From Eledone cirrhosa (taxonomy: Eukaryota), in the NCBI GenBank assembly GCA_964016885.1, contig OZ024742.1:58590001-58654000 (forward strand): 64,000 bases of DNA, in the 5' to 3' direction. Both the position numbers and the translations under genes were made by a program. This document shows positions 562 to 64,000 of the stretch, in pieces. Numbering within the stretch: the stretch's first letter is position 1; every line of letters starts with the position of its first letter. The notes beneath the pieces are model-generated. The model did no database searches. It saw only the letters and a list, made by a program, of their open reading frames with translations, and was not told the origin of the DNA.

Positions 562-2598
562 GGATTTTGGTAGATAGATTGAACATATAAATATTGCTCT
601 GTTATAATATCGTACTAATTTAACAGATTTCACCCCCAAAAATGTCTCTATAAATTGGTGTTTTTTCTATAAGATATCGATTTATAAGCGAAATGTTTTA
701 GTTGTTTCTTTTTGTTGACGTTTGTTGTTTTTATTCTTCCCATTGTATTTGGCCAACTTTTCTAATTTATTTTAGTGGCAAATGATTTTGTAGAAGCTAC
801 TCTATATGTGTTTGTATTTATTAAGAATATGATTTTCAAAATCAACAAGTAATGAATATTCCAGTAAGAGAGAAAAAAAGGGGAAATACACGTCGCCATT
901 CTCCCTTAATTACACAGTACAAGCAGTGAATGTAAAATCCTAAAGGTTTGTAGGAGGCAAAAGAAAGGGAGAGACATAAAATGAATTAGCATCAGAACAT
1001 TGTACAAGATCTATGACTGGTAAACAAGGAATGGAAGAATGTACTTGCCTTGGCTCGGAATAGGAAATGCTGGATTGCTCTGACTGCCTCGTGTCTCAAG
1101 ACATGGGAGCTCCTAAGTCTAAATAAACTACCAATGTTGCAACTGGTAAATCAACCCAATTCTCCAAAACTTTGACACTCACAGAATGTAGGGGACTCCA
1201 GATTGATCAAAAATAGAGTTGAAAATATGTTTTGATTAAAATTCTAGAGTCAGGTATTTTTATTTTATTTTATCACATAGGAAGTGTTGAACCTGCATTG
1301 ATTCCGATGAGGGCGTTTCAGTTGATTTGAGCAACAGAATCGCCTGCTCATGAAATTAACATGCAAGTGACTACAGACTATAACAGTTTTCAGGAAGATT
1401 CAGTATGACACAAGGTGAGATAAATTTGGTCCTTTGAACTAGAGGTACAACTCATTTTTGCCTGTTGAGTGGACTGGAGGAGCATAAATAAAGAGTTTTG
1501 CTCATGGACACAATGCAATGCTGGCATTTAGAAGAAGTGGGGGATAGTGTGAGTTCCTCAGTTGTTTGGGATAGGAAGGGCATCAAGCCATAGAAAACCT
1601 CTCAAACAAAGGGTAATGATGACTCTTCAGCTGTATCATAGACATGACAACTTCCTTAGTATTAATGCCACAATAAAATGAGTATGGGATTGTGTATCAG
1701 GCCTTGGCGAACCTGGAGATCAGAGACTTTGCTTGAGTAACGATAGGTCTTACCCTGACTAGTTGTGAAAAATGGACACTAAAAGACGACTGATGATGAG
1801 GCTGGATGAAAGTTGGAAGAGACTGGATGAAGGCTGATTGAAGAAAACTAGATGAATATTGCTGATAATGATGATCTTATTTTACTCTTCTGACTTCTTG
1901 GTTCAAATCAAACTGGAGCTGAATTAACTTTTCATCACTAGTGTTTCTATAGGAAGAGGGTGGGGCAATATTTTGGTAGAACATGGGTCTTCAGAATGAG
2001 GCATATATATACCATGCTATATACTATGTCCATTCATGGTGGAGTATGTGTGGCATGGAATAAAAATGGTTGAGAAATACTACTCTAAAGCAATTGAGAG
2101 TGATTGAGTATTGGAGCCCAAACCTGACATAAAAATACAAGTCCAGAAATTTGTGAGGAAGAGAAAGTTGATTACATCAACCCCAGTAATTTACTGGTAC
2201 TTTATTTTATTGACCCTAAAAGGATGAAAGGGAGAGTTGAACTTGGAAAGTAAAGAGCTGGAAGAAATACCACAAAGCATTTTATGTGACTCCCTAACAA
2301 TTCTGCTCTGGAAATATATAAAATAATATAATACATATGCTGAACAAAGAAAACAAAAGGTGAAGTTTAGTGCTTAACTAGATCATTGTTTTACGATCGT
2401 TTCAGAAGGTTGATTGACCATGATAAGTCGATATAATGGCTAATCGATAGCAGTTATGCGACTCCATATTATTAGTCTTAGTACTATAGATCCATCTTAC
2501 TGTCTTCGTAAGAAACAATGCACAAAACTGTGCCTTTTGTTTTCATTGTTCAACATATATATATATGTGACTCTGTAGCTCATTGAATATATATAGAT

Positions 2599-2932
2599 GG
2601 AGGCTCATGGCTTAGTGGTTAGAGCAGTGGCCTTGCAATCGAAAGGTTGTGAGTTCAATTCTCAGACCGGGTGATGTGTTGTTTCCTTGAGCAAGACACT
2701 TTATTTCACATTGCTCCAGTTTACTCAGCTGTAGAAATGAGATGATAAGGACTGAGGTCCCTATCATTCCACTGAAAATTGGTCGTGGAGGTGCCACGGA
2801 AAAAAAGCACCTAGCACTCACTGTAAATGAGGTTGGTGTTAGGAAGGGAAGGGCATCCAGCTGTAGAAATCAAGCTAGAATCAGTTCCCGTCACACCCTT
2901 GCAAGCAGGGAAAAGCGGACGTAAAATGATGA
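2599..2932 (+). mobile_element. tRNA-derived CORE-type SINE with RTE-like 3' tail
   Basis: A box TGGCTTAGTGG, B box GAGTTCAATTC, CORE-like CCTTGAGCAAGACACTT, tail GGACGTAAAATGATGAT. Near-identical copies elsewhere in the window. Confidence 0.85.
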
Positions 2933-3046
2933 TAGAGAGAGAGTCTAAAGTCTGTCTCTAACACAGAGACTCATTAGGTTGGTGCTTGATTGAGAGTACA
3001 AGACTCCCTCCTGGACAAGACGTTAGTTCATCACAGAGTTAACCCC

Positions 3047-3298
3047 GCTCAGCGTTGCTGAAGCATGGAACAAACTTCCTGCATCAATTGTTAGCTGCTG
3101 AGACACTGCATCCTTTAAAATCTTCATGCTTCCTGAAATTCGCCAACACTATACCTGACATCCCCCCTCCATACACATGCACATGTGTATATCATGACTT
3201 ATACACTGTTCATTTTCCTGACGTTTGTACATTATTCTATGCACTATACATGAACCTTTTATGAGTTGTAATGCACCTGAGCACTGTACACAATAATT

Positions 3299-3329
<31 letters not shown>

Positions 3330-3330
3330 G
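3047..3330 (+). mobile_element. CR1-clade LINE 3' end fragment with (ATT)n tail
   Basis: Matches the 3' ends of the copies at 7160-7363 and 38670-38935. Confidence 0.8.
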
Positions 3331-3839
3331 TACTGCTTGTACACATTTTCAGCTGAGCTCAAGAACACAACCCAACCTGGTCCAGAAATAGAACCCTCAA
3401 CATTATAGTCGTAAATCCAACACCTTAATCATTAAGCCATGAGTCTTCACAATTTACATAGTTCTAGATTAAAAGATACAAACAGAGAATATTTTCACAA
3501 AGTCTTATTTCCACACTTGTGGGCAAACAAAAAAGTAATGTCTCAATATATTAGATGTTAATCCTTCATCAGGAAAGACAAAAGTTTGGCGAGAGAGGAG
3601 GTTGGAAGTTGAAGGAAAAATAAAAGGGTTTATTAGGATGAGTGAGGTGCAAATGTAAGTAGACCGCCATGTAGGGGTAGGTCAAAGTTGCAAAAGTGAT
3701 GGTGGAGTGTCCAAGTCTATCCTGTGTGTGAGTGTTGTTTTTATTTATTGTTTGTGTGCATGTGTTGGTATATATGTTGGAGTGGTGAATATTTTGCACA
3801 TGATAGTGTGCGTGTGTGGTATAAATAAATATATATATA

Positions 3840-5092
3840 TCTTAAAGTTAACTTGTCTAAGACTAAAGTTCTAGTTTGTAGGAAGGAAAGTAGGGCACCG
3901 GTCCCATCTGGGAAATGGCCATGCTCAGTGTGTAGGAAAGGAGTAGGCAGAAACTCCATTTTATGTCCCAAATACAAAGTATGGGTGCATAAAAGATGTA
4001 GTGGGATCACAGGTAAGCTAACTAAGAATATAGATTTTATATGTGGCCGGTGCTAGGGTGCAATAAGTAGCAGCAAGTGCCCACAGAATACTAGCTCATT
4101 CCATTGCACAGATGGTTCTATAGAAATAGTGGACACCTTCCATTACCTGGGTGACAAAATCAGCAGTGGGGGAGGGTGCTCTGAAAGTACAGTAGCTAGA
4201 GTCAGAACGGGATGGAAAAAGTTCAGAGAGCTTATACCACTATTGGCCGCTAAAGGGTTCTCTCTAAAAATGAAAGGCAGGCTGTATGATGCCTGCATAC
4301 GAACAGCAATGTTACATGGCAGTGAGACCTGGGCATTGTGTGCAGAGGATATACGCAGACTGGAGAGGAACGAAGCTTGCATGCTCCACTGGATGTGTAA
4401 TAGTAATATACGCGAACGGCAAAGCATAAACGAACTAAGGGAGAAATTAGGAATAAGAGGGATCAGATGTTGTTTACTCGAGAGAAGACTACATTGGTAC
4501 GGTCACGTGATGCGCATGAAAGACGACAGCTGTATAAAAAGTGCAGGGCGATAAAAATAGACGGTAGCCACAGAGTAGGCAGACCCAGAAAAACCTGGGA
4601 CGACTTGATAAATTCCGACCTCACACACTTACACCTCTCCAAGACAATGTCACTGGACCGAGACCTTTGGCGCTACACAGTCATACAGAAGATCCGCCTT
4701 GCCTAAGTACAAAGCGAAACCTACAGTCAGTAGGCACCTCTAACAAAATACACCCCCGTCCCACTACCCCCAGCCCATCCACACCACCCCCTTAAATGTG
4801 AAGTTATGTTGGTACCACAACATCCAGTCCGAAACAAATGAGGTCGTGTAGGTGTCACGACAAAAAAACTCACAGTCCACGCTGTAATGTGGCCGTGTAG
4901 GTAACACGGTAAAAACCTCCCAGTCCACACTGTAAACGTGGTTGGTGTTAGGAAGGGCATCCAACCGTAGAAAACCCGCCAGACAGTCCTATACGAGCAG
5001 GACAACAAATCTTGCCTCAAGTGGGAAAACTCCCGTCCAAACCCATGCAAGCGTGGAAGATGGACGTTAAACGATGATGATGATGATGATGA
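3840..5092 (+). mobile_element. RTE-clade LINE, 5'-truncated and disrupted, with 3' UTR and (GAT)n tail
   Basis: ORF pieces [12 protein letters not shown]..., FHYLGD...[16 protein letters not shown], homologous to 27322-29817. Contains a stop and frameshifts. Confidence 0.9.
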
Positions 5093-5099
5093 TAATATA

Positions 5100-5308
5100 T
5101 ATGTAAAAGGTAAACAGAAATAACAACACAATCGGTACAGTATATGGAAGGGATATATTAGGTTAATGCTTGATATAGCTGGAAGAGGGTCTTAACATTT
5201 CGGACGCTAGTCCTTCATCAGAAGAAAGAATGATAAATAAGATAGATTGAGGGGACAGGCAGGCTGGAATTGGAAAAAATTTCTTTAGATAAAAACAACA
5301 GGTCCATG
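5100..5308 (-). mobile_element. Short repeat carrying a minimal hammerhead motif at 5190-5225 (Penelope pLTR-like), copy 1 of 3
   Basis: Minus strand UCUU-CUGAUGA-A-GGAC-UAGC-GUCC-GAAA-UGUU-AAGA. Homologous copies at 60598 and 63650. Confidence 0.7.
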
Positions 5309-5688
5309 TGTGTGTGTGTGTGTGTGTTTATGCTCTGTAACTTACCGGTTTGAGAAAAGAGTATCAGAAACATAAGTACCAAAGTTGATATGATCAACTA
5401 CATCCAAGAATAGCCACTGTCCATTCATTGAAATTAGTAAATCAGGTTTATGATTATAGAAGAAGCATACCAATAAAAAAGAACGCGTTGGAAAGAAGAA
5501 AAAGATGGGACAACATACACAATCACACTCTACAACAAGAAATGCTGGTATTGCTTTCTAAATATTGTTGAGGTCAGCTAAAACATTCACATTACCACAG
5601 GTTATAGCAAAACTAAGTTGCTGAAATAGTCAAGCACTCTCTTGAGCATCCCTTGGAAATTAAGTATGGTGCTCTGCCAACAGTTGTT

Positions 5689-5905
5689 TTAACCCTTTAG
5701 CATTTAAACCGGCCATATCTGGCCAGAATTCTTTCACCTCTTTCTGTTCAAACCAACTGTAATCGGCCGTTCATACTGATGTTAAGGTATTGTTCTCAAA
5801 ATAAATAACATCAAAATCTCATAGATTCGATATTATGTGAGGTAAAGTCTTTACTGTGAAAATACAATAGTATATATAGAGTAATGTAAATGCTAAAGTG
5901 TTTAT
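5689..5905. mobile_element. piggyBac-like MITE
   Basis: Termini TTAACCCTTTAGCATTTA ... TAAATGCTAAAGTGTTTA. Inverted copy at 38236-38444. Confidence 0.6.
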
Positions 5906-6344
5906 ATTTAACTAAAAACCTTCCATCATCATTTCTTGTAAGCTTTGTTAAGTTATGCTCTGAACACCAGCTTAATAATGAGGAAGTTAGTTATGTTGCT
6001 AAATTCTTGATGATGTAAAAGTCACAGACAATGTTTTTCGTGAGAAATATTTTAATGAAATCCTTCTTGTTCAAAGCTTAGTTTAATAAACTGGATGTAA
6101 TTTGATGGAGATCATCAATCTACTACCAAAAGAACACTCATTGAGAGAGCCTCTTTAGATTTACTAAACCCTCTCATTACCATATTTCTTATAGAAGACA
6201 CAAATAATTCTGAAAATAATCAAGAATTTGGAGGGATTTAGTAATATAATTAACTTTATTGTTATTAAGCTGGAGTTTGGAACATAACTTAAGAAAAGAT
6301 GGTATTCAGCTAAATATAAACCTTTTCATTACCCTATTTATAAT

Positions 6345-7363
6345 AGAAGAGAAACCATTGTCATCTGGTGTACCACAGGGATCTGTTCTTGGCCCCCTTT
6401 TGTTTGTGGCATATATTAATGACATAGATGCCAACTTAAAAAATGCCACAGTACTGAAATATGCAGATGATATCAAGCTGTACCTTGAGATAAAAAGGAC
6501 AGATCTTGAACACTATAGATCTTGCCTGCAATCTGACCTGGACACAATGCAACAATGATTCATGGACTGGCAACTCAAGCTGGCTGTGGACAAGTGTACC
6601 ACCATGCATTTTAGAAGTAAAAACCCAGCATCCATATACTCCCTCCACAACACTAATATCAAGAAGTCTTCTTGTGAACGTGACCTGGGCATTACTGTTA
6701 GCAGTGATTTGCGTTGGACGAAGCACGCCTCTAAAATTGACAAGAAGGCCGAGGGTGTCTTAGCATCACTCAGCAAGACCTTTGTCAGCTGCTCTCCGCT
6801 ATCTATTTAAAGCTGTATATAGCTATGGTGCAGCCACACTTAGAATTTGCATCACCTGTCTGGAACCCCTATCTTGCTCAGAACATTGACCGCCTGGAAA
6901 CCGTTCAGAGACGTGCAACCAAGCGAATACCGTCCATCAGGCATCTACCATACTCTGAACGCCTTGCTTCCCTGGTCATGGATACATTGAAGCTCCGACG
7001 TCTGGCAACTGAGTTGGTAAACACCCATAAAATTATCAACCATTTTGCCAACAACAACCCTGAGTACCTTTTTGATTTCCATGTGTCTAACACACGTGGA
7101 CATGCCAACAACGTCAGAAAACAGCACAGCTCCCATGACTTTCGGAAACATCTTTTCACGCTCAGAGTTGCTGAAGCATGGAACAAACTACCTGCATCAA
7201 TTGTTAGCTGCCGAGATACTGCATCCTTTAAAACCTCCATGCTTTCTGAGATTCGCCAACATTCACCCCTGACATTTGTATATTGTTCTATGTACTATAC
7301 ATGCACATTTGATGAGTTGTAGTGCACTTGAGCACTGTATACAATCATTTCATTATTATTATT
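6345..7363 (+). mobile_element. CR1-clade LINE RT fragment (5'-truncated, disrupted)
   Basis: SGVPQGSVLGPLLF, KYADD, ERDLGI, PHLEFASPVWNPY, LETVQRRATK, (ATT)n tail. Contains a stop and a frameshift. Confidence 0.9.
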
Positions 7364-9455
7364 ATAATCAAGAATTTAGAGGGATTTAGTACATAACTAA
7401 CTTTCTTGTCCTTTTATAAAGATGAATTTCTCTTTGTAAAACGGTTGTATCAAACGATAGTCAGTGGTGTAAGGGAGATAACTCTTAATTTCTGAAACTG
7501 AAAAAGATTTAAGTTAATTCGGCAAAAAGGATAATTTGGCACAGTTCGGGAACCAAAGGTGTCGGAAAATAATATTTTTTCTTATATAGACACAAGGACA
7601 ATTTTTTTCATGATGGGTTATGGGTTGTAGTCGATTTAAGTGGCTTCAGTATTTGACTTGTACTTAATGCATCGACATCGAGAGATATGAAAGTCAAAGT
7701 CTAACTCTTGAGAATTTCAAAAAACTTAAGAAACAGACTCCAGCAGATTGACAGAAGGTAATTTAATATTACTACAAAGCATCGTAGATACTAATAAAAA
7801 TCATAATAGAACATAATAGATGGCGACATCGGTAGCATTTGAATTCAGAGCGTTAAGTTACACCATAAGGTATTTTGGTGAAATTCAAGAAAAGCAGCGT
7901 AATGAAAAATAAGACCAACTATAAAAAGGTCTCAAGCAGAGCTTCTCAAAGTGGACGCTACCGCCCTCAGGGGTGAGAAGGTTCAGGTTGCGCTAGGGCC
8001 TAAGGGGACAGTGGTGGCTAGATATTTTATAATAGAATATTAAATATCAAATGATACATATTCTATATAAATATAGTAAAATAAAAAAATACATATTTAT
8101 TTATTCATAGTATATATTATATTATTTATTATATATAACTTAACGATTTTATTTATATATTATTTACAATTTGCGTGTAGGCAGGTCTCTTTGGGAATGG
8201 GGTTGGAAACGCTGAAGGTATTACGTATGCCTCAAAATCGAAGACTTATAAGGCTGGTGTTTATTCCGGTTTCCCTGGCGTTAAGCGACTGAGATTACAA
8301 GACCCTTCCTCTGAACTAGGCACCAGTCCACCAGTGTTAACCCTCCCAGCTACTGCTGGCACTCATTTTCAGCTGATAATACTGGAGCAACGTGAAATGA
8401 AGTGTTTTGTTCAATAACAAAATACATAACCCAGTTCAGGAATCGAACCTACGACATCATGATAGTAAGGAAAGGGTCTGTGTAAAAAATAACACCATTT
8501 TCCTGAATTTTTCAAAACGAAGAGTCATTTTAGTGATGATATTTTTTTAGTTTCAATTTATTAAGTTTTGAAATTTCATTTCAAATACAAACATATATTT
8601 ATAAATAAAAAATGTAGGTAGGGTGCTAAAAATTCTACTTTCAAACCAACTTAAAACGACGTTTCAGTTAATCAAGGATGACAATTTAAAAAGAAAAAAA
8701 AACACATTTCGTTTCGGTAATTCAGGAAATTCTAGATTTTTTTTATTTTATCACCCACATTTATTTCTGGTTTCATTTTTAATCAAACATCTTTTCTCGA
8801 ACTTTACCAGTATTTCGCCCGACATTCAAATGAAAAAAATTAAACTTATAATTGAATTAATACCAACTGGTGCTTTTTCGTTATTACCTCGCATTTCAAA
8901 TTGAAACGGACATTACGCAATAATAACCCATAACACGAGCTCTAATTTATCTATATATATCAATTTAAATGCGAGGTAACAACAAAAAAGTACCCAACAA
9001 TTATTGTTGCGTAAGAAACAATGGGAAATATTTTAATGTAAAGTTGTAACAGAGTTCCGGTAAGCAACACATGCTCAATAAAACGCCCATGTGTATATAA
9101 TAGACAGAGAAATATAGGAGGAGAGAGAGAATATAAGATATATATATATATATATATATAATAGAATAATCGAGTATCGGAAAATCAGCTCACGGATTAA
9201 CGATAAACAAGTCCGACATGAGTGGCAGAGGGCTCAATAATTCAGATAAATCAGAGCTATAACTATCGTTAAAATACCAACACACAAAGATTATGCCTAA
9301 AATCACCCATGCAGCCGAAAAAGAACGACCAGGAAGATTCGGGTCACTCAAATAAAATATCAATAAATATATATATTATATATACTCCAGTCCTACAAAT
9401 TGTAGAGTGCTTCTTATCTGCATTGCTTTATTGTACTACAATAAAACTCGCCTCC

Positions 9456-12800: not shown

Positions 12801-14505
12801 TGTGGAGAGAATCATTTTGTTGCCTGTAGTTGTAATTATTCCCTAAACTTATTCTACAACATTCTTACTCTCGTTTCAGAGCATCCACCTATACTAATTA
12901 AATTCTCTAATTCACAATCTATCAACTATTTTTATGGAGCCCTCTGAGCATTTGAAATAATGTATTTCATACGTTATGCTAATTATTCCTGCACATTTAC
13001 TACTTACAAAGTCTTGATTTCTCTGTCAGCCTACCTGTAATACTTCATTTCGTATGCACCCATTGTTTATATTCAGTATGCTGTATGTAGTTTGTAACTA
13101 TTTCCTTTCTGCATATCAAACATGACAACTTCCCAGATGGCAATAGTCTTCCTGAAATTTTTATCTTTGTTAGGTTTACTATATTTAAGGCCTTTTGATT
13201 GTAGGCTTTGTTTTCACTTTTGTAATTTCTTCAAAGTTTGTAACAGTTTGCTTTGAGAACTAGATAGTTTTGTTATGGCCAGAACTATAACAAACATTGT
13301 GGAACTGAGAACAGAACCCTGATGGACACTTGTCTGCAAACTAAATTCTTTGCTGATTCCTTGCCAACAATATCTCAGTACATGGCTTGAATGTCTCTTA
13401 GGAGCCATTTATTTAATTTTCTTAGTGACTACAAGATTACAGATTTGCCCTTTCAAAGGCCTTCTTCAGGTCGAATTCTAGATATAGAGATTTACTCTTA
13501 GCTATAGATTTCTACAGTTGTCATTAAGAAGAGGGCTGTAGTGATGCTCCACCTTGAAGCAAATCTGAATTTCATCTTATTTAAGCTAATTCTCTTAGCC
13601 CTTCTATTTGATGTCACTGTAGTTGCTTTTTTTACAGTTGTAAATAATAACCTGATAAAAAGTTTTATCAATTGAGAGCCAATGCTGTTAATTTTTGCTT
13701 TTTTCAAAAAATTGTTAAACAAATATTTTGATCAAATTTACCTTACTTTGGTGGAGAACTGATGTAAAATAACATACAAGGGTTGAGAGGTAAAAAAATG
13801 TACCAGTATGGCACTCAAGGAGTTAATAATTGACAATGTTAACACTAATGTTTAATGTGATTTATGTAGTTATATCATTTCTTCTATGTTTGTAGTCAAT
13901 TGCTGATATTATCCAAACATGTTTGGGACCAAGATCTATGTTGAAGGTAACCTTTTTCTTTATTCTAGTTTATTTTTTTTAAATAAAAACTAAATATATT
14001 ATTTGTCTTTTAACTATTTTGATATCAACCTGCCTAAAATTAGTTCTGGTTCTATGAAATAAAAAATACATGTTTCAAACGGTTCCTATTTAAATTGAAA
14101 ACTTCCAACATAATTTTATATAAGAATCGTATGCTTGGTTAGTATCTTAGTAATGAAATAATTCATAATTTTTAGTGAATCCCTCAAAATTCTTCATTAG
14201 AAATGCAGTCATGAAAGGGTTAAAGATATTTACATGGTTGAAAGGATACTTCAATCATCACGGCCATGACAACCTCTTTTGTGCTGGATCCACATAAATC
14301 ACAGCTGATGATAAGAAAGGCATCTAATTGTAGAAAACCTGCCAAATAAAAAGTTGAGAGGAATATTCAGTTATGTCAAAGAAATGACTACCTCTCTAGT
14401 GCAGAAATGTGAAATGTGGCTCTCTGGTGGCATTGATTAGGTATTGACATAGTCTGTGACAACCCAGCCAACTTTTGGTATCGGGAGAAAATAGACATGA
14501 AATGG

Positions 14506-14547
<42 letters not shown>

Positions 14548-15034
14548 AAAGTTATATTTAAATTGTTGGGTTACAACTAGTAAATATTTATAACTGATAT
14601 AAAAGCACTCGACAAGTATTTGGAGCATATTTACAATATTAAATAAATGGAAACTATATTTATAAAACCATATTTATTTCATTATATATATTTCAGGGAT
14701 ATCATATTAACAATATGCTATGCCTTCCTCAGACAAAATACAATATAAACAGTTTTATAGATAAATAGATTTGACATACCGTAACAACATCGACTTGTAT
14801 TTGAAAAGTTGAATTGGCAGTGAAAAAATTGTACACAGTACAATTTTTTCACTGCCAATTCAACTTTTCAAATACAAGTCGATGTTGTTACGGTATGTCA
14901 AATCTATTTATCTATAAAACTGTTTATATTGTATTTTGTCTGAGGAAGGCATAGCATATTGTTAATATGATATCCCTGAAATATATATAATGAAATAAAT
15001 ATGGTTTTATAAATATAGTTTCCATTTATTTAAT

Positions 15035-15070
<36 letters not shown>

Positions 15071-18000
15071 TTCAAATCTAACATTGAATTCATTCAGGAT
15101 TTCCCACCTCGACTTAATACTTTATTCATCAAAGATAAATAAATTGTGCTGAAGTGTCAAATGAACACATTATTTTGTTTGGTACTTTCATTGTAGCAAT
15201 ATCGATTAGGAAATCTATAGTGTGTCTTTGTGTACATTTTAAAGGGTTACAGATGGATATATATATAAATATACAAACACACATAGTGTATTACAGTTGA
15301 TATTGTCACTTTTTATACAAATATCAAGTTTTGGCCAAAAGTTTCAATTGACCTCTTGGGTAATCGTATCAACACCTTGGGATATAGTTTGGGTCAATAT
15401 CTACCATTCTGGAAACTCCTGCTACAGCAGTTGTTTCCAACAATACCGGAACAGCATCATTCATTAATACTTAGTATATGTAGCTGTAGTTTACCTCTGT
15501 TGGGGAAACTGATTGATTTTTAAGATAAGATCATAATCTTAGCTAGGACTCACACTTATCAAGGAGCTTCCCTTGTCTGGGTCAAAGGAAAGGCAATAAC
15601 AGTATGTCTGAGGTTTAATGGGGTCCACTCCATTTGTTGGTGTGATGGATGGCTGTTGACAGGTATTTTTTTATCCCATCAGGGTGTCCATTCACCCTCT
15701 ACTTGCTAGAGTGAGATCCTAGTTTAGTTAACCAACAGCTTGACCATAAAACAGGTAGTAATGGTTCTGACGTGTTGATGTTAAAGTAGATATTATAACA
15801 GCTTTCATTTTTGTAATTTGTGTACTATATCTTTTGAATTTGTTTTGTGTTGACAATATAAATGGTAACAAATTGTAATAAGAATGTTCTTCTTAATTGT
15901 TCCAGATGTTGATGGATCCAATGGGAGGAATTGTCATGACAAATGATGGCAATGCCATTCTCAGAGAGGTAAGCTCATCATTTTATTTCTCCTCTTGATG
16001 CTATTGTTTTTATTTTTAGATCCCCCCCCCCCTCCTGTGGTCCTATACGATTACTTCCCTTAGTATTTGACACTTAGCTCCTTTCGGTTTCACACAACCT
16101 CCCTAAACCATTAATGAGAATCAATAGTTTTTTAACATGACCCTACCAAAAATGCTATACATTTTCAATGAAGATTCCAAACTGAATTTTCTAAAGGATA
16201 TTGCAAAAAGTTTCATTATATTGACAGATAATTTAATATAATAAAATGTAAGCAAAAACATAAAAAAAAACAATTATTTTCTGTATCAACATATACATAT
16301 GTTGATACTTAGAGAAAATAATTCTCATATATGTGCTCCATGTAGTCTTTTGCTGCCCTTAAGCATGGCACAATGTGGTGTTCCCTGGTCTATTGATTTC
16401 GCCTGTCAATTGTTAAATCATTGGGACTAGAATTTGTGGTCGGCGGTGTCACAGTCCTATTATGCCAGGCTGTTGCCACCAGGTTCACTTTTTGCCTCTG
16501 TATTGTGTCACCTCGTTGCCTCAATTTTGCTGAGGTAACAGCTTTTGGCATGTCATGTCTTTTTTCTTTTTTCTTATTGCCTTGCAAGCATAGGTCCCAT
16601 TTTTTAAAGGTTCCTGAAAGAGGAGAAAAAATTATCACAATGCACATGATTTTTTCCCCCATATGTCCTTTGTGAGACCCTTTACAATCTTTCACTAAGT
16701 CTTTGTTCCATTGAATTAAGACTTTCCCTGTATAAATTTGGAAGCCATTTACATAGCCATTGTGTGGATCAGCCCCCATCCACACTTTTATCCCATGCTT
16801 TATAGGCTTCAGTGGACGATATTGTTTGAAACCAAATCATCCAGTGAAAACAACCATGCCTTCATTCCATGTTGGACTGTAGTGCGATTTCAAATTCCTA
16901 TGTATCCTTTCAATAAATGGCCGAACATGGGAAAGATTGTCATGGTTAGGGTGACCAGGTGCTGGATTCTGGGTGACATCGGAAATAAGGAAATACTTGT
17001 AATCAATTCCCTGATCCTGCAGACTGAAATAAATTATCTTTTAAAAAATACGTCTTGATTCTACACAATAATATGCCATGTGTGCTTGTATATTTATATA
17101 TATGACCAAAGATTAATATGGTTCATTGATTACTCAATGAATATAGTTTTACAATAGATTAAAATCACTCTACAGAAAAGTTTTATGGAGTTATTATTAT
17201 CCAGAATAATAATAAATGAAGACATTCACATAATCAAAATATATGTTTTATTATATATATTTTGAAGGTACTATGCTGCTTTTTTCAGTACGTCCTCGTC
17301 AGATAAAATACATGAATTGATGTACGACATACCTCAACTGTCTTGATAGTTCAATTCCAGTATTGCCTATACTGGAATTGATCTATCAAGACAGTTGAGG
17401 TATGTCATACTTCAATTCATGTATTTTATCTGACGAGGACATACTGAAAAACCAACACAGTACCTTCGAAATATATATATTATATATATATCCCTATAAC
17501 TCATTAAAATCTGCACAATACACCTTGTGTGTTTGTATATTATATATATATCCAATGCAATTCCTACCTTGGTGATATTGCTACAAGAAGTTCACTTTCC
17601 AATCACAAGCTATTTCTCCAAAGCTACTCATGTATTTAATCTTGTCATTTGTACATATGTACTGAACATTTATGCAATTATATATTAGAAATAAATTATT
17701 AAAATATCATTTTTATCTTTAATCCCTTCCACATGTCAGTAATCAACATAAACTATAAGGTTTCTCTTAGGCAAACCATTAATTTATCAAAATGCAAATT
17801 TCTCAGTTCGTATGATTGTTCATATATATGATAATCCTGATATATATGACATATCAATTCTGGACTCCAAAAATTAAATATGTTCAATGCCATCGATGGC
17901 ACTGGTCCACTAGTTTTAGTATTGTAACATGTAATGTAATAGTTTCCTTCTCTCTTTAGATAACAGTTCAACATCCAGCTGCTAAATCTATCATTGAAGT

Positions 18001-57869: not shown

Positions 57870-60014
57870 GGGGATGACATAGGCAACTTCCGGCCCATAA
57901 CTCTGCTAAACACAGAGTTACAGATTTTGGCCAAGGTGTTGGCAAAGAGGCTGGCGCTTGTCGTCGAGAACCTGGTGGGAGAAGCGCAGACATGCGCGAT
58001 CCCGACCAGGTCCATACACGACAACCTCCACCTCATGCGATACATCATAGAGAGGGTAGGGTGTAAACCCGGCTTCGGTGGGGCCCTGATCAACTTGGAT
58101 CAGTCTAAGGCTTTCGATAGGGTTGACCATCGTTACCTGGATGCGGTGCTCGAGGCGGCAGGCTTCGGACCCGTGTTCAGGGGCTGGATTGCTGCAATGC
58201 ACAACAGCAACATCTGCTCAAGGGTCAAGGTGAACGGTTACCTCTCGGAGCCGTTCCATATTACGCGATCCATTCGACAGGGATGCCCTCTCTCCTCCCT
58301 TCTGTACGTACTGACTCTCGAGCCACTACTGCGGAAGCTGGAGCTATTGCAGGGCATCCCTCTGGAACCGGGACTGCGGAAAGCGGCGTCGGCCTACGCC
58401 GACGACGTGACAGTAATGGTGTCGAGCGCCTCGCAAATCGAGGAAGTCGGCACCTTACTAAAGGAATACGAAAGTCTCACAGGAGCGAAGCTGAACCGGG
58501 ACAAGTCCATCGGTTTGCAACTCGGATCGTGGAGAGGCAGACCGATGCCTTCCGATGGCGTCGTCGGACGCTGGACGGAAGGACCGGTAAAGCTGCTCGG
58601 GGTCTGGTTTGGTCCGGACCTCCAGGTGGAGAAGAACTGGAACGAAGTGACGGCCAAGGTGTTTGCACTCACCCAGAAGTGGGCCGAGTGCAAACTATCC
58701 TTGAAAGGTCGAGCGGAGGTGGCGAACACTTTTATAGCGTCCGCCATCTACTACCGCTTGACCGTCGTGCCTTGTCCAGCCAAAACGCTCGCCAAAATGG
58801 AGCGCGCCCTCTTCCGATTCCTTTGGAAGAGGCGGGCTCCTTTGGTAAGAAGATCCATCTGCTGCCAACACCCTTCTAACGGAGGGCTGGGGATGCCGTG
58901 GTTGACGATGCGCAAACACGCGCTCAGGCTGCGGCATCTCTACGTATTCCTCACCGGACAACCGGTGTGGGCCCCGTTCGTGAGGCGAGCCTTCCCACGA
59001 CTCGTCTCGCTGACCGAGCTGCAGTCCTGGGTCAAGCAGAGACCGAGGAAAATGGGCGACTGGCACATCGAATGTGCTCAGGCGCTCACAGCCCTCTGGC
59101 AGGCGGACCCGGCGATCAGTGGAGACTCCACTTCGTCATTCTATAGAGGGTTGGTCCGCAGCAAGTGCGACGACGCGCTCGGTGAAACTCTAGGCGTGGA
59201 GGAAGATGAACTGGCCAGTCTGTTCGGTAGGACCTTCCGCCCGGGACCGATGGACAACTTCCAAAAGTCCCTGGCCTGGCAGTGCTACCGAGGAGCTCTA
59301 CCAGTTCGAGACAAGCTCTACAGACATGGGCGCCCGGGCAGGGACCCTGCAAAAAAGATCTGTCCGAGGTGCGTGCGAGACGAAGAAACCGTCGCGCACG
59401 CATTCATACACTGCCCGGGCGTCACTGACCTGTGGGGCTATGTAGAACGACTATTGTCGCGGGTGGGACCAATCCAGTTGACCACCGAGTCCATTGTCAT
59501 GATCAAACCGCCACCCTCCTTCAAAAACGAAGGAGAGGCGGTTTTCCTTTGTGTGATAGCTATGGCGAAAGAGGTTGTATGGTGGACAAGGTTGAAAGGG
59601 CTGAGGTCAGACACCTTTCTCTCCGGCCAACAACTGATTCTTTTTTTCAAATACCACTTTGGAAGAAGAATCAGGATGGAGAGAGAGGTGCTGTACCCCA
59701 GCAAGTTTTATGAAAGGTGGGTGAAAGTGGCGAGAATGGCCCGAGTGAATGGGCCTTCTCTCTATATCAGCCTGTAGGTTGAGGAAAAGGAGGAGGAGAG
59801 GAAAGGAGTACAAGCTCTTCGTACTCCTGGAGATGAGGGTTGCACATTTTTTTCGGGGGTCTGTGTTACCCATATAAACTGTCTCCCTCTATTGGGGAAA
59901 ATCGACTAACTTTTAAATTCCATCTGTGATAACATTTTACACGTTTTTATTGTATGTAAACTTCCCCCTTTGTATTTGTCCCCTTCTTTTGTGCCCCTGT
60001 GGCTAATAAAGAAA
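57870..60014 (+). mobile_element. Tx1/L1-clade non-LTR retrotransposon, 5'-truncated, intact RT-to-zinc-finger ORF ending at 59777
   Basis: NFRPITLLN, LDQSKAFDRVDH, IRQGCPLS, AYADD, GGLGMP, CPRC...ETVAHAFIHC. GC-rich body, AATAAA, then (TATC)n. Confidence 0.92.
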
Positions 60015-60016
60015 TA

Positions 60017-60055
<39 letters not shown>

Positions 60056-60063
60056 TTATCTAT

Positions 60064-60546
60064 GAGAGGCGATTTTCCTTTGTGTGATAGCTATGGCGAA
60101 AGAGGTTGTATGGTGGACAAGGTTGAAAGGGCTGAGGTCAGACACCTTTCTCTCCGGTCAACAACTGATTCTTTTTTTTCAAATACCACTTTGGAAGAAG
60201 AATCAGGATGGAGAGAGAGGTGCTGTACCCCAGCAAGTTTTATGAAAGGTGGGTGAAAGTGGCGAGAATACCCGAGTGAATGGGCCTTCTCTCTATATCA
60301 GCCTGTAGGTTGAGGAAAAGGAGGAGGAGAGGAAAGGAGTACAAACTCTTCGTACTCCTGGAGATGAGGGTTTCATATTTTTTCGAGGGGTATGTGTTAC
60401 CCATATAAACTGTCTCCCCCTATTGGGGAAAATCGACTAATTTTTTAAATTGCATTTGTGATAATATTTTACACGTTTTTATTGTATGTAAACTTCCCCC
60501 TTTGTATTTGTCCCCTTCTTTTGTGCCCCTGTGGCTAATAAAGAAA
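60064..60546 (+). mobile_element. Second, short 3' copy of the Tx1 element inside a (TATC)n tract
   Basis: Near-duplicate of 59533-60014. Confidence 0.9.
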
Positions 60547-60597
60547 CATATCTATCTATCTATCTATATATCTATCTATCTCTCTCTATATATATAT

Positions 60598-60870
60598 GTA
60601 AAAGGTAAACAGAAATAACAACACAGTCGGTACAGTATATGGAAGGAATATATTAGGTTAACGCTTGAAATAGCAGGAAGAGGGTTTTAACGTTTCGGAC
60701 GCTAGTCCTTCATCAGAAGAAAGAATGAGAAATAAGAAAAATTGAAGGGACTGGCGGGTTGGAATTGGAAAAAATGTCTTTAGATAAAAATAACAGGTCC
60801 ATTCATGTTGACCACTCTTGGAAAACTGTTGGTGCTGGCGTTTTGTGTATGATTTATTTTTTTTAGAGAG
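60598..60870 (-). mobile_element. Hammerhead-bearing short repeat, copy 2 (motif 60685-60720)
   Basis: Minus strand CUGAUGA-AGGACUAGCGUCC-GAAACGUU. Confidence 0.7.
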
Positions 60871-61267
60871 AGAGAGAATATACTCTAAAACCAGAGAGTT
60901 ACTCAATTTTTTGATCTAGAAAGGATGAAAGGCAAAGCTGATCTCAGTGGGATACGAACTCAGAATGCAGTAAATAAGAGCCAGAACAATTACAATAAAA
61001 GTCTTCTATTTCACAATCTAACGACTCTACAGAATGGCACCACATTTTATAACCAAATTATGCAAGTCTTCGAATGTTTGGGTTTATTATGTTGTTCGAT
61101 CACAGTTAGTTCCGACGATGAGTGTTCCAGTTATTGGATCAACGGAACAACCTGCTCCTGAAATTACCATGCAAATGGCTGAGCATTCCACAGATACATA
61201 GTATCTGTGTTCTCAGAAAGATTCATCGGTGTGACACAATGTGTGAATGACTGGCACAACTCATTTT

Positions 61268-63072
61268 TTGGTGGTGGTAGTGTTAGTGGTGGGTGTGGAG
61301 GTGGTGTTAATAGCAGCAGTCTTAATGGTGGTGATGGTAGCAGTATTAGTAGCGGTGGTGGTTGAAGTGAAGTTAGTTGCGGTAGTGGTGGTGGTTGAAG
61401 TGGTAGTAGTGGTGGTTGTGGTGGTGGTTGAAGTGGTAGAGGTGGTGGTGTTTGAAGTGGTAGTAGTGATGGTGGTTGAAGTGGTAGTAGTGGTGGTGGT
61501 TGAAGTGGTAGTAGCGGTGGTGGTTGTGGTGGTGGTTGAAGTGGTAGCAGTGGTGGTAGTTGAAGTGGTAGTAATGGTGGTGGTTGAAGTGGTAGTAGTG
61601 GTGGTGGTTGAAGTGGTAGTAGTGGTGGTGGTTGAAGTGGTAGTAGTGGTGGTAGTTGAAGTGGTAGTAATGGTGGTGGTTGAAGTGGTAGTAGTGGTGG
61701 TGGTTGAAGTGGTAGTAGTGGTGGTGGTTGAAGTGGTAGTAGTGGTGGTGGTTGAAGTGGTAGTAGTGGTGGTGGTTGAAGTGGTAGTAGTGGTGGTAGT
61801 TGAAGTGGTAGTAGTGGTGGTGGTTGAAGTGGTAGTAGTGATGGTAGTTGAAGTGGTAGTAATGGTGGTAGTAAAGTGGTAGTAGTGGTGGTGGTTGAAG
61901 TGGTAGTAGTGGTGGTAGTTGAAGTGGTAGTAGTGGTGGTGGTAGTAGTGGTGGTAGTTGAAGTGGTAGTAGTGGTGGTGGTAGTTGAAGTGGTAGTAGT
62001 GGTGGTGGTAGTTGAAGTGGTAGTAGTGGTGGTGGTAGTTGAAGTGGTAGTAGTGGTAGTGGTTGAAGTGGTAGTAGTGGTGGTAGTTGAAGTGGTAGTA
62101 ATGGTGGTGGTTGAAGTGGTAGTAGTGGTGGTGGTAGTTGAAGTGGTAGTAGTGGTGGTAGTTGAAGTGGTAGTAGTGGTGGTGGTAGTTGAAGTGGTAG
62201 TAGTGGTGGTGGTAGTTGAAGTGGTAGTAGTGGTGGTGGTAGTTGAAGTGGTAGTAGTAGTAGTGGTAGTTGAAGTGGTAGTAGTGGTAGTGGTTGAAGT
62301 GGTAGTAGTGGTGGTAGTTGAAGTGGTAGTAGTGGTGGTGGTAGTTGAAGTGGTAGTAGTGGTGGTGGTAGTTGAAGTGGTAGTAGTGGTGGTGGTAGTT
62401 GAAGTGGTAGTAGTGGTGGTGGTAGTTGAAGTGGTAGTAGTGGTGGTGGTAGTTGAAGTGGTAGTAGTGGTGGTGGTAGTTGAAGTGGTAGTAGTGGTAG
62501 TGGTAGTTGAAGTGGTAGTAGTGGTGGTGGTAGTTGAAGTGGTAGTAGTGGTGGTGGTAGTTGAAGTGGTAGTAGTGGTGGTGGTAGTTGAAGTGGTAGT
62601 AGTGGTGGTGGTAGTTGAAGTGGTAGTAGTGGTGGTGGTAGTTGAAGTGGTAGTAGTGGTGGTGGTAGTTGAAGTGGTAGTAATGGTGGTGGTAGTTGAA
62701 GTGGTAGTAGTGGTGGTGGTAGTTGAAGTGGTAGTAGTGGTGGTGGTAGTTGAAGTGGTAGTAGTGGTGGTGGTAGTTGAAGTGGTAGTAGTGGTGGTGG
62801 TAGTTGAAGTGGTAGTAGTGGTGGTGGTAGTTGAAGTGGTAGTAGTGGTGGTGGTAGTTGAAGTGGTAGTAGTGGTGGTGGTAGTTGAAGTGGTAGTAGT
62901 GGTGGTGGTAGTTGAAGTGGTAGTAGTGGTGGTGGTAGTTGAAGTGGTAGTAGTGGTGGTGGTAGTTGAAGTGGTAGTAGTGGTGGTGGTAGTTGAAGTG
63001 GTAGTAGTGGTGGTGGTAGTTGAAGTGGTAGTAGTGGTGGTGGTAGTTGAAGTGGTAGTAGTGGTGGTGGTT
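61268..63072. repeat. Minisatellite of 24-27-bp units (GAAGTGGTAGTAGTGGTGGTGGTAGTT)
   Basis: Seen directly; it explains the poly-Val ORFs. Confidence 0.95.
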
Positions 63073-63289
63073 TAAACAGCTGGAATATGTTTTTGAAACA
63101 TTTTAACTTGGCCTCTGATTACGGTTGTTACTGAAACATTGATCGCACATGCACACACATACATACACACATATAAATACACGCACATACACGCACATAC
63201 ACACACATACGTACACACACATACATACACATGCACACACACACACACACACGTGTGCGTGTGTATGTATGTATAGTTATATATATCCA

Positions 63290-63900
<611 letters not shown>

Positions 63901-64000
63901 AAGTGGATGATGGAGCGCACGGGGTTTACGTTCCTAGAGCACCCACGAAGAGGGAAAAACTGCGAATATTAGACGGTCCATAAAAATACCTATAAACCAC

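What the first reader, a model, noticed from the sequence alone, without database searches (positions are those of the whole stretch)
14632..15040. Perfect 409-bp palindrome in CCT3 intron 3 that encodes a complete hammerhead ribozyme on each strand
Seen: 203-bp arms with no visible mismatch and a 3-nt loop. Each arm holds a full type I hammerhead (+ 14932-14997, - 14675-14740): 8-bp stem I with two GU pairs, CUGAGGA, stem II, GAAA, a 2-bp stem III whose AUAUAUAU is self-complementary, and an AUA cleavage triplet. Known: minimal hammerheads with palindromic stem III mark the pseudo-LTRs of Penelope-like elements, are thought to cleave as dimers, and such pLTRs can be inverted. Inference: in CCT3 pre-mRNA the antisense arm is made first and would lock the sense ribozyme in a long duplex. 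A self-cleaving motif could then sit harmlessly in an essential gene, and the duplex would be a strong ADAR/Dicer substrate.
Basis: partly seen in the sequence, partly recalled or inferred. Interest (0 to 1): 0.8.

Follow-up and report, generated by a model that had tools for sequence, protein, structure and literature searches.

The report
Hairpin stub of a Penelope retrotransposon
The perfect palindrome in this gene's intron is a short back-to-back insertion of a recently spreading jumping gene (a Penelope-like element) whose ends carry the hammerhead motif; hundreds of similar hairpins lie across this genome, so it is likely an ordinary by-product of how the element copies itself, not a control switch of the gene.

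Summary
In detail: exact 203-bp arms, 3-nt loop, a minimal type I hammerhead in each arm, in CCT3 intron 3. The palindrome is the core of a 496-bp insertion (14545-15040) between two (TA)n arrays. It consists of two 5'-truncated copies of the 3' end of a Penelope-like element (PLE), joined head to head; one copy keeps an 87-nt 'tail', the other does not. The family is young (1,765 exact ribozyme-core copies) and has a 3.8-kb unit whose 737-aa ORF carries the Hydra-clade marks. Head-to-head inverted PLE copies, junction palindromes, tails and opposite-strand hammerhead pairs are all published, and this scan noted such stubs before in a shark. Added here: 49 of 51 inverted insertions have one tailed and one short end; either arm may be the longer; and in tight palindromes the arms stop at a TCACT initiator-like motif (41 of 48). 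This fits two cDNAs primed on both target strands and joined by fold-back. Locking of the ribozyme in the duplex is predicted by folding but is likely incidental; cleavage, editing and presence in raw reads were not shown.

The parts
14545..15040 (.). Whole PLE insertion: two 5'-truncated 3' ends joined head to head, between two (TA)n arrays
14545..14838 (-). Tailed arm: element positions -206 to +87 relative to the short end; 1 substitution in 294 nt against natural copy L035
14545..14631 (-). 87-nt 'tail' extension, present on one arm only; holds this copy's single difference from L035 (14626)
14838..15040 (+). Short-ended arm: element positions -202 to 0; 100% identical over 203 nt to 21 other places among the 42 matches listed
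14835..14838 (.). Inversion junction: 3-nt loop ACA, 1-nt microhomology; unique in the genome (1 match)
14932..14997 (+). Minimal type I hammerhead motif, predicted cut after 14989
14675..14740 (-). Mirror copy of the hammerhead motif
14849..14853 (+). TCACT initiator-like motif (A = element position -189); inferred start of the element's RNA, where most tight palindromes of the family end
   Evidence: TCACT Inr in PLE pLTRs per PMC3846280
14513..14544 (.). Left (TA)n target array
15041..15066 (.). Right (TA)n target array
13896..13946 (+). CCT3-like exon 3 (host)
15906..15968 (+). CCT3-like exon 4 (host)
17238..17490 (.). Second, older hammerhead palindrome of a sister PLE family in intron 4 (arms 88.6% alike; both motifs damaged)

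Best explanation
The palindrome is a 5'-truncated, head-to-head insertion of a young Penelope-like retrotransposon family (Hydra-clade marks) into a (TA)n array, and the two hammerheads are the motif that every copy carries in its pseudo-LTR. Shown: family membership, one tailed and one short end, unique junction. Inferred mechanism: the element's GIY-YIG endonuclease nicks both strands of the (TA)n target; reverse transcription starts at two internal RNA sites 87 nt apart (the tail), one cDNA on each strand; both stop early; the 3' end of one folds back, or jumps onto the other at a 1-nt microhomology, and the gap is filled, which gives a near-perfect hairpin. In CCT3 pre-mRNA the arms would zip into a 203-bp duplex that buries the sense ribozyme, but that is likely a side effect: the minimal motif is predicted to be nearly inactive alone, and the intron is likely tolerated without selection for a lock.
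For: Arm is a high-copy repeat: 1,466 first-look candidates, 1,765 exact 54-nt core matches, control 0. A natural 3,808-bp unit with a 737-aa open ORF lies between tandem repeats in L035; it has YRDD, DKT, RWR, CxCx5C, a VY...YVG GIY-YIG core, CxxC and CxH, no CCHH, the Hydra marks of PMC8557442 section 11; atlas neighbours carry GIY-YIG and RVT_1 on part of their members. Of 62 loci examined, 51 have outward-pointing ends; 49 of the 51 have one tailed and one short end, 42 are (TA)n-flanked on both sides. Among the first 100 core matches, 34 adjacent pairs are head-to-head, 0 tail-to-tail. The two arms stop within 40 nt of each other in 6 of 23 longer insertions against 1.4 expected (permutation p=0.00045). 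In 48 tight palindromes 42 have one tailed and one short end; the longer arm is the tailed one in 18, the short one in 17, equal in 7. Two RT start sites that bound the tail and cleavage/extension of both strands were shown in vitro for another PLE (PMC11167929). Stem II covaries across 73 distinct motifs from several families (positions 1-3 paired in 72, 71, 73 of 73).
Against: No Pfam or PDB match for the ORF itself, and the structure prediction was not returned, so RT/GIY-YIG rests on motifs, homologues and the atlas. Unit length 3.8 kb exceeds the '<3 kb' usual for Hydra. No tree with reference Hydra proteins was made. No contig of three runs of one sample spans the junction and none carries this copy's private tail base; this may mean a polymorphic allele, filtering, or an assembly fault. 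Arm-to-arm divergence did not separate fold-back from two-cDNA joining. This copy extends 17 nt beyond the -189 wall, so it did not arise by run-off at that inferred RNA start.
Confidence: 0.9

Rival explanations
1. Same element, other route: a single self-primed cDNA folds back and copies itself into a palindromic DNA with tails on both ends, and the endonuclease trims one end at the short site during integration (self-priming model of Arkhipova 2013; tail from EN resolution as suggested by Craig 2021).
For: Tiny loops and hairpin-shaped recurrent junctions; arms of one locus share private variants (0.66 differences per 133 nt within loci vs 1.04 between); PMC3846280 passages; PMC8557442 passages.
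Against: 17 of 23 longer insertions have arms that stop more than 40 nt apart, often by kilobases; the tail sits on the shorter, folded-back arm in 17 of 42 cases, which needs trimming at the start of the first cDNA; two RT starts on both strands were seen in vitro (PMC11167929).
Confidence: 0.3
2. The hairpin is a host-retained safety or regulatory device: the antisense arm locks an otherwise active ribozyme in an essential gene, or feeds ADAR/Dicer to regulate CCT3.
For: Duplex of -329 kcal/mol, z -40; sense ribozyme fully paired at all prefix lengths tried; a second such element in intron 4.
Against: The copy is near-identical to family members (1 change in 294 nt), so very recent; the structure is the family's routine product; about 23,000 cores genome-wide give about 0.5 per 64 kb, so two loci in a 42-kb gene need no special cause; the monomer barely folds; the older intron-4 copy has decayed.
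Confidence: 0.07
3. A non-autonomous palindromic unit (MITE-like) that is copied as a whole hairpin.
For: One junction recurs 39 times; the sister family repeats one centre at several loci.
Against: This copy's junction is unique; the recurrent junction occurs in different variant backgrounds, with the first base after the joint following the locus's own variant and with the tail on either side, as expected of independent events at a hot spot.
Confidence: 0.05
4. Fold-back artefact of sequencing or assembly.
For: No junction-spanning contig and no contig with the private tail base in three runs of one sample.
Against: The arms end exactly at the element's two natural ends with different genomic flanks in correct exon order; at least 173 tight palindromes of the family have varied centres, older ones with diverged arms; whether that sample is the assembled individual is unknown.
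Confidence: 0.04

Closest known systems
Hydra-clade Penelope-like elements (Craig et al. 2021, PMC8557442; includes Hydra-1_Obim from Octopus bimaculoides and Penelope-13_HM with an inverted 5'-truncated copy)
   Same: C-terminal GIY-YIG, DKT, RW[KR], CxCx5C linker, no CCHH, CxxC and CxH, hammerhead in the pLTR, (TA)n targets, inverted 5'-truncated copy, tail on one end
   Different: Unit 3.8 kb rather than <3 kb; tail 87 nt rather than 30-40; listed Hydra-1_oBim hammerhead has another sequence, so a different family; RWK is RWR
Penelope insertions with inverted pLTR, junction palindromes and TCACT initiator (Arkhipova et al. 2013, PMC3846280)
   Same: Head-to-head arrangement, palindrome at the inverted junction, optional tail, Inr-like TCACT in the pLTR
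   Different: There a few copies with target-site duplications; here hundreds of ORF-less stubs in (TA)n, allowing junction counts; no TSD can be read in (TA)n
Minimal hammerheads of metazoan PLEs (Cervera and De la Pena 2014, PMC4209133)
   Same: Type I core, long helix II with unpaired base near its base, palindromic tiny helix III; paper notes dual motifs 100-700 bp apart on opposite strands
   Different: Helix I 8 bp; pair 10.1-11.1 is A-U here, G-C or G-U in sister families
Poseidon element PAc of Anolis (Frangieh et al. 2024, PMC11167929)
   Same: Two ends separated by a tail, AT-rich targets, hammerhead near the RT start region
   Different: Other clade; there the ORF starts inside the hammerhead, here the ATG lies 48 nt past the tail end
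Non-LTR retrozymes (bioRxiv 10.64898/2026.07.22.740005)
   Same: Non-coding, type I hammerhead, PLE pLTR origin
   Different: Retrozymes are head-to-tail tandem units; this is an inverted pair with no tandem partner for dimer cleavage in cis

Membership tests
Penelope-like element (EN+) | Single ORF with RT and GIY-YIG endonuclease in full-length copies | tested here: met
   737-aa ORF L035:2646-4856 with YRDD and VY...YVG/RxxxH/E/N motifs conserved in 15 homologues; atlas neighbours with GIY-YIG and RVT_1; Pfam and PDB searches of the ORF itself blank; structure job not returned
Penelope-like element (EN+) | Partial tandems forming pLTRs, inverted 5'-truncated copy, tail on one end | tested here: met
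   Tandems in L035, L045, L069-L071; 49 of 51 inverted insertions with one tail
Penelope-like element (EN+) | RT phylogeny within PLEs | not tested
   No reference PLE proteins were available as tool-given sequences
Hydra clade | DKT in place of DKG; RWK motif | tested here: met
   SDKTNN; RIRWRAF (RWR variant; RWK and RWR both in homologues)
Hydra clade | CxCX5C linker; CCHH absent; CxxC and CxH around conserved E and N | tested here: met
   CNCRDRSKC; one unconserved Cys inside the GIY-YIG core; CDLCAEE; CCRH
Hydra clade | (TA)n target preference and pLTR hammerhead | tested here: met
   42 of 51 inverted insertions TA-flanked on both sides; hammerhead 100 nt from the short end
Hydra clade | Generally shorter than 3 kb (typical, not diagnostic) | tested here: not met
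   Unit 3,808 bp, owing to a long 3' non-coding part
Neptune / Naiad clades | CX2-5CxxC linker plus CCHH motif (Neptune); N-terminal EN, DKA, no hammerhead (Naiad) | tested here: not met
   Linker is CxCx5C, EN is C-terminal, DKT, hammerhead present
Minimal type I hammerhead ribozyme | CUGANGA / GAAA / NUH core with helices I and II and covariation | tested here: met
   Core present; stem II positions 1-3 paired in 72, 71, 73 of 73 distinct motifs with A-U/G-U/G-C swaps; stem I positions 1-6 paired in 61-72 of 73; 21,205 genome matches vs 4 in the reversed control
Minimal type I hammerhead ribozyme | Score above an Rfam hammerhead model | tested here: not met
   No hammerhead family at E<=10
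Minimal type I hammerhead ribozyme | Self-cleavage (monomer or dimer) | not testable with these tools
   AUAUAUAU self-duplex predicted at -3.2 kcal/mol, monomer stem III probability 0.00; no sharp pile-up of 5' ends at the cut site among tight junctions
Non-LTR retrozyme | Head-to-tail tandem units each with a hammerhead | tested here: not met
   Inverted pair only
MITE / DNA transposon | Symmetric termini and a shared, inherited internal sequence | tested here: not met
   Ends asymmetric by an 87-nt tail; centre unique

The most novel reading that the evidence does not exclude
The thousands of hammerhead hairpins in this genome are a fossil record of PLE integration: each is built anew from two cDNAs started at the two ends of the tail on opposite target strands, many running off the RNA 5' end at the TCACT initiator and folding back, so that PLEs by their mechanism seed host introns with perfect, ribozyme-containing dsRNA substrates (about 250 short pairs in this family, about 3,000 across sister families, by extrapolation).
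Probability: 0.5. Interest if true: 0.55.

Novelty: new member of a known kind. Interest (0 to 1): 0.3.

Why it matters
The locus itself is ordinary. The family matters more: how PLEs make inverted repeats and tails is named as an open question in PMC8557442 and PMC11167929, and a young family with 1,765 identical ribozyme cores, an open ORF and hundreds of readable junctions makes the two-cDNA and self-priming models testable. If the hairpins are transcribed in introns they would also be a large, perfectly paired source of dsRNA for ADAR or Dicer.

Tried and rejected
Rfam: no hammerhead hit; the microRNA hits are below gathering scores and reflect any long hairpin. Pfam and PDB sequence searches of the ORF: blank. 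Structure prediction: submitted, not finished, so no fold evidence. Sequencing runs: no RNA holder listed. Contigs of three runs of one sample cover the flanks but none spans the junction; a RAD-seq run did not cover it: inconclusive. Arm-to-arm divergence by junction type was spoiled by alignments running into (TA)n flanks: not used. Excess of 5' ends at the ribozyme cut site: 64 tight junctions, centres spread over about -50 to -75, about 8 of the 50 listed with an arm ending at -50 (counted by eye), no wall: no support for cleaved RNA as template. First version of the junction script had an indexing error in the extension columns; corrected. MITE, retrozyme, Neptune and Naiad readings rejected as in the membership table. 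Literature searches for a PLE fold-back or twin-priming study and for PLE hairpins as editing substrates returned PMC3846280 as the only directly relevant paper beyond those cited; the library lacks most subscription journals.

Full report
Observation. The arms are exact reverse complements over 203 bp (14632-14834, 14838-15040) with a 3-nt loop, and this is the only non-microsatellite perfect hairpin of 20 bp or more with a loop under 12 nt in the window. Each arm holds a minimal type I hammerhead: the core pattern matches 3 times in the window against a shuffle mean of 0.02, twice here and once at 17430. Rfam models do not detect it. CCT3-like exons with GT-AG boundaries place the site between exons 3 and 4; the gene name rests on recalled motifs.

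What it is. The arm is a young high-copy repeat (1,765 exact core matches in 3.0 Gb, control 0). Flanks of the best copies show two kinds of end: a short end followed by (TA)n, or a further 87-nt tail followed by (TA)n. In the window the minus arm has the tail and the plus arm the short end, so the insertion spans 14545-15040 between two (TA)n arrays. Locus L035 holds a 3,808-bp unit in partial tandem with a 737-aa open ORF. Pfam and PDB searches of it were blank, but 153 homologues were found, an alignment of 15 of them conserves YRDD, DKT, RW[KR], CxCx5C, a VY...Y(V/I)G core, CxxC and CxH, and atlas neighbours carry GIY-YIG and RVT_1 on part of their members. These are the Hydra-clade marks in section 11 of PMC8557442, which I read whole; its supplement, part 2 of 59, lists Hydra families with (TA)n targets, one from Octopus bimaculoides. 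The unit is longer than the usual 3 kb and no tree was built. The host taxon was not determined; the named protein hits nearest the top are from Argonauta hians at 35-41% identity.

How common the palindrome is. Among the first 100 core matches (first 222 Mb of C1; 60 clusters) 14 adjacent pairs are head-to-head within 300 bp, 20 head-to-head at 0.3-6 kb, 6 tandem, 0 tail-to-tail. A looser core pattern that excludes this family's G at position 7 gives 21,205 matches against 4 in the control, and 13 short head-to-head pairs among its first 100. Extrapolated, about 250 short hairpins in this family and about 2,750 in sister families; 173 tight ones centred near position -185 were counted directly. 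The junction of the window copy occurs once.

Mechanism. Of 62 loci examined (window, L001, L031-L091 without L051; chosen from best hits and from the C1 list, not at random), 51 have outward-pointing ends and 11 do not or were cut by the fetch; 49 of the 51 have one tailed and one short end. For 38 loci with a cleanly mapped junction (24 others were fragmentary, single-armed or complex and left out), the tailed arm is longer in 19 and the short arm in 18; among 23 with an end upstream of -195, 6 have both arms stopping within 40 nt, against 1.4 by permutation (p=0.00045), with loops down to 0-5 nt on arms of up to 2 kb. I then examined 48 loci from the first 50 of the 173 tight palindromes: 42 have one tail and one short end; the longer arm stops at -190 to -187 in 41 and never beyond -190, although the pattern allowed up to -206; the A of TCACT is -189; the longer arm is tailed in 18, short in 17, equal in 7. 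A sister family has the same TCACT with a TATATAAA about 30 nt upstream, matching the TATA/TCACT layout described in PMC3846280 (nine passages read). I infer that TCACT is the RNA start and that many stubs arise by run-off there. One junction recurs 39 times in different variant backgrounds and polarities, which points to independent events. PMC11167929 (parts 1-2 of 4 read) shows in vitro, for a Poseidon element, cleavage and extension of both strands and two RT starts that bound the tail. The simplest joint reading is two cDNAs, one per target strand and start site, joined by microhomology or by fold-back and annealing. A self-primed hairpin trimmed on one side at integration remains possible. 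The window copy runs 17 nt past the -189 wall and has a 1-nt microhomology.

The ribozyme. Across 73 distinct motifs from the fetched loci, stem II positions 1-3 are paired in 72, 71 and 73 with changes on both sides, and a C.C mismatch follows in 70; these count sequences, not independent events. The monomer is predicted to form stem II only. PMC4209133 (parts 1-2 of 4 read) reports no cleavage for a single minimal motif, low cleavage for dimers, and dual motifs 100-700 bp apart on opposite strands. The whole insert folds to -329 kcal/mol and the sense motif is fully paired to the antisense arm at all five prefix lengths tried. So the lock is predicted, but nothing shows it is needed or selected. 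No wall of 5' ends was seen at the cut site.

Against and open. Contigs from three runs of one sample cover the flanks with no substitutions in the long pieces listed but do not span the junction, and all contigs covering 14626 carry the family base rather than this copy's private base. Whether that sample is the assembled individual is unknown (its one fixed difference lies in a poly-C run), and contig filters drop records, so the allele is unconfirmed; a polymorphic insertion is the likeliest reading. No RNA run was listed.

Prior knowledge and verdict. Inverted 5'-truncated copies, tails, junction palindromes and opposite-strand hammerheads are in print (PMC8557442 passages; PMC3846280; PMC4209133). 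Retrozymes differ by being tandem (bioRxiv 10.64898/2026.07.22.740005, part 1 of 5 read; its supplements are closed). This scan noted palindromic PLE stubs in a shark (e1-7858806). Searches did not list a paper with junction counts of this kind, but the library is partial. Verdict: a real, new member of a known kind; interest 0.3, higher only for the family's value in testing PLE integration.

Noticed in passing
window 17238-17490 (tail to about 17100): Second head-to-head hammerhead palindrome in CCT3 intron 4, from a sister family (1,267 first-look candidates); arms 88.6% alike, plus-strand motif lost the 3' side of stem I, minus-strand motif lost its GAAA; centre lies at the family's TCACT/TGCCAA hot spot.
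   Followed up: partly
G000 genome-wide: At least 21,205 further minimal hammerhead cores of several related families, all with a TA-type palindromic stem III; more than the 2,000-9,000 per genome quoted in PMC4209133 (different descriptors).
   Followed up: partly
L115-L117 (G000:C1:133985400-133986400): One insertion with three repeated fold-back junctions at 223-nt period, separated by AT-rich stutters of the sequence just before the hammerhead: looks like repeated template switching.
   Followed up: no
L035, L045, L069, L070, L071: Partial tandems always join tail end to unit start, and the upstream partial copy reaches 430-977 nt upstream of the short end, beyond the inferred RNA start; fits a circular or read-through template.
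   Followed up: no
L036/L037 (G000:C3:7839219-7849313): Two near-identical inverted insertions 8.8 kb apart, one with two short ends: possibly part of a larger duplication or misassembly.
   Followed up: no
L035:4130-4220 (ORF residues about 495-525): Asparagine-rich insert between RT and EN parts, as described for rotifer Penelope elements in PMC3846280.
   Followed up: no
window about 14040-14290 and 15180-15340: Other high-copy short repeats in intron 3, seen as depth peaks in laid contigs.
   Followed up: no
window 60001-64000: Strong G skew (about 0.48), probably simple purine repeats.
   Followed up: no
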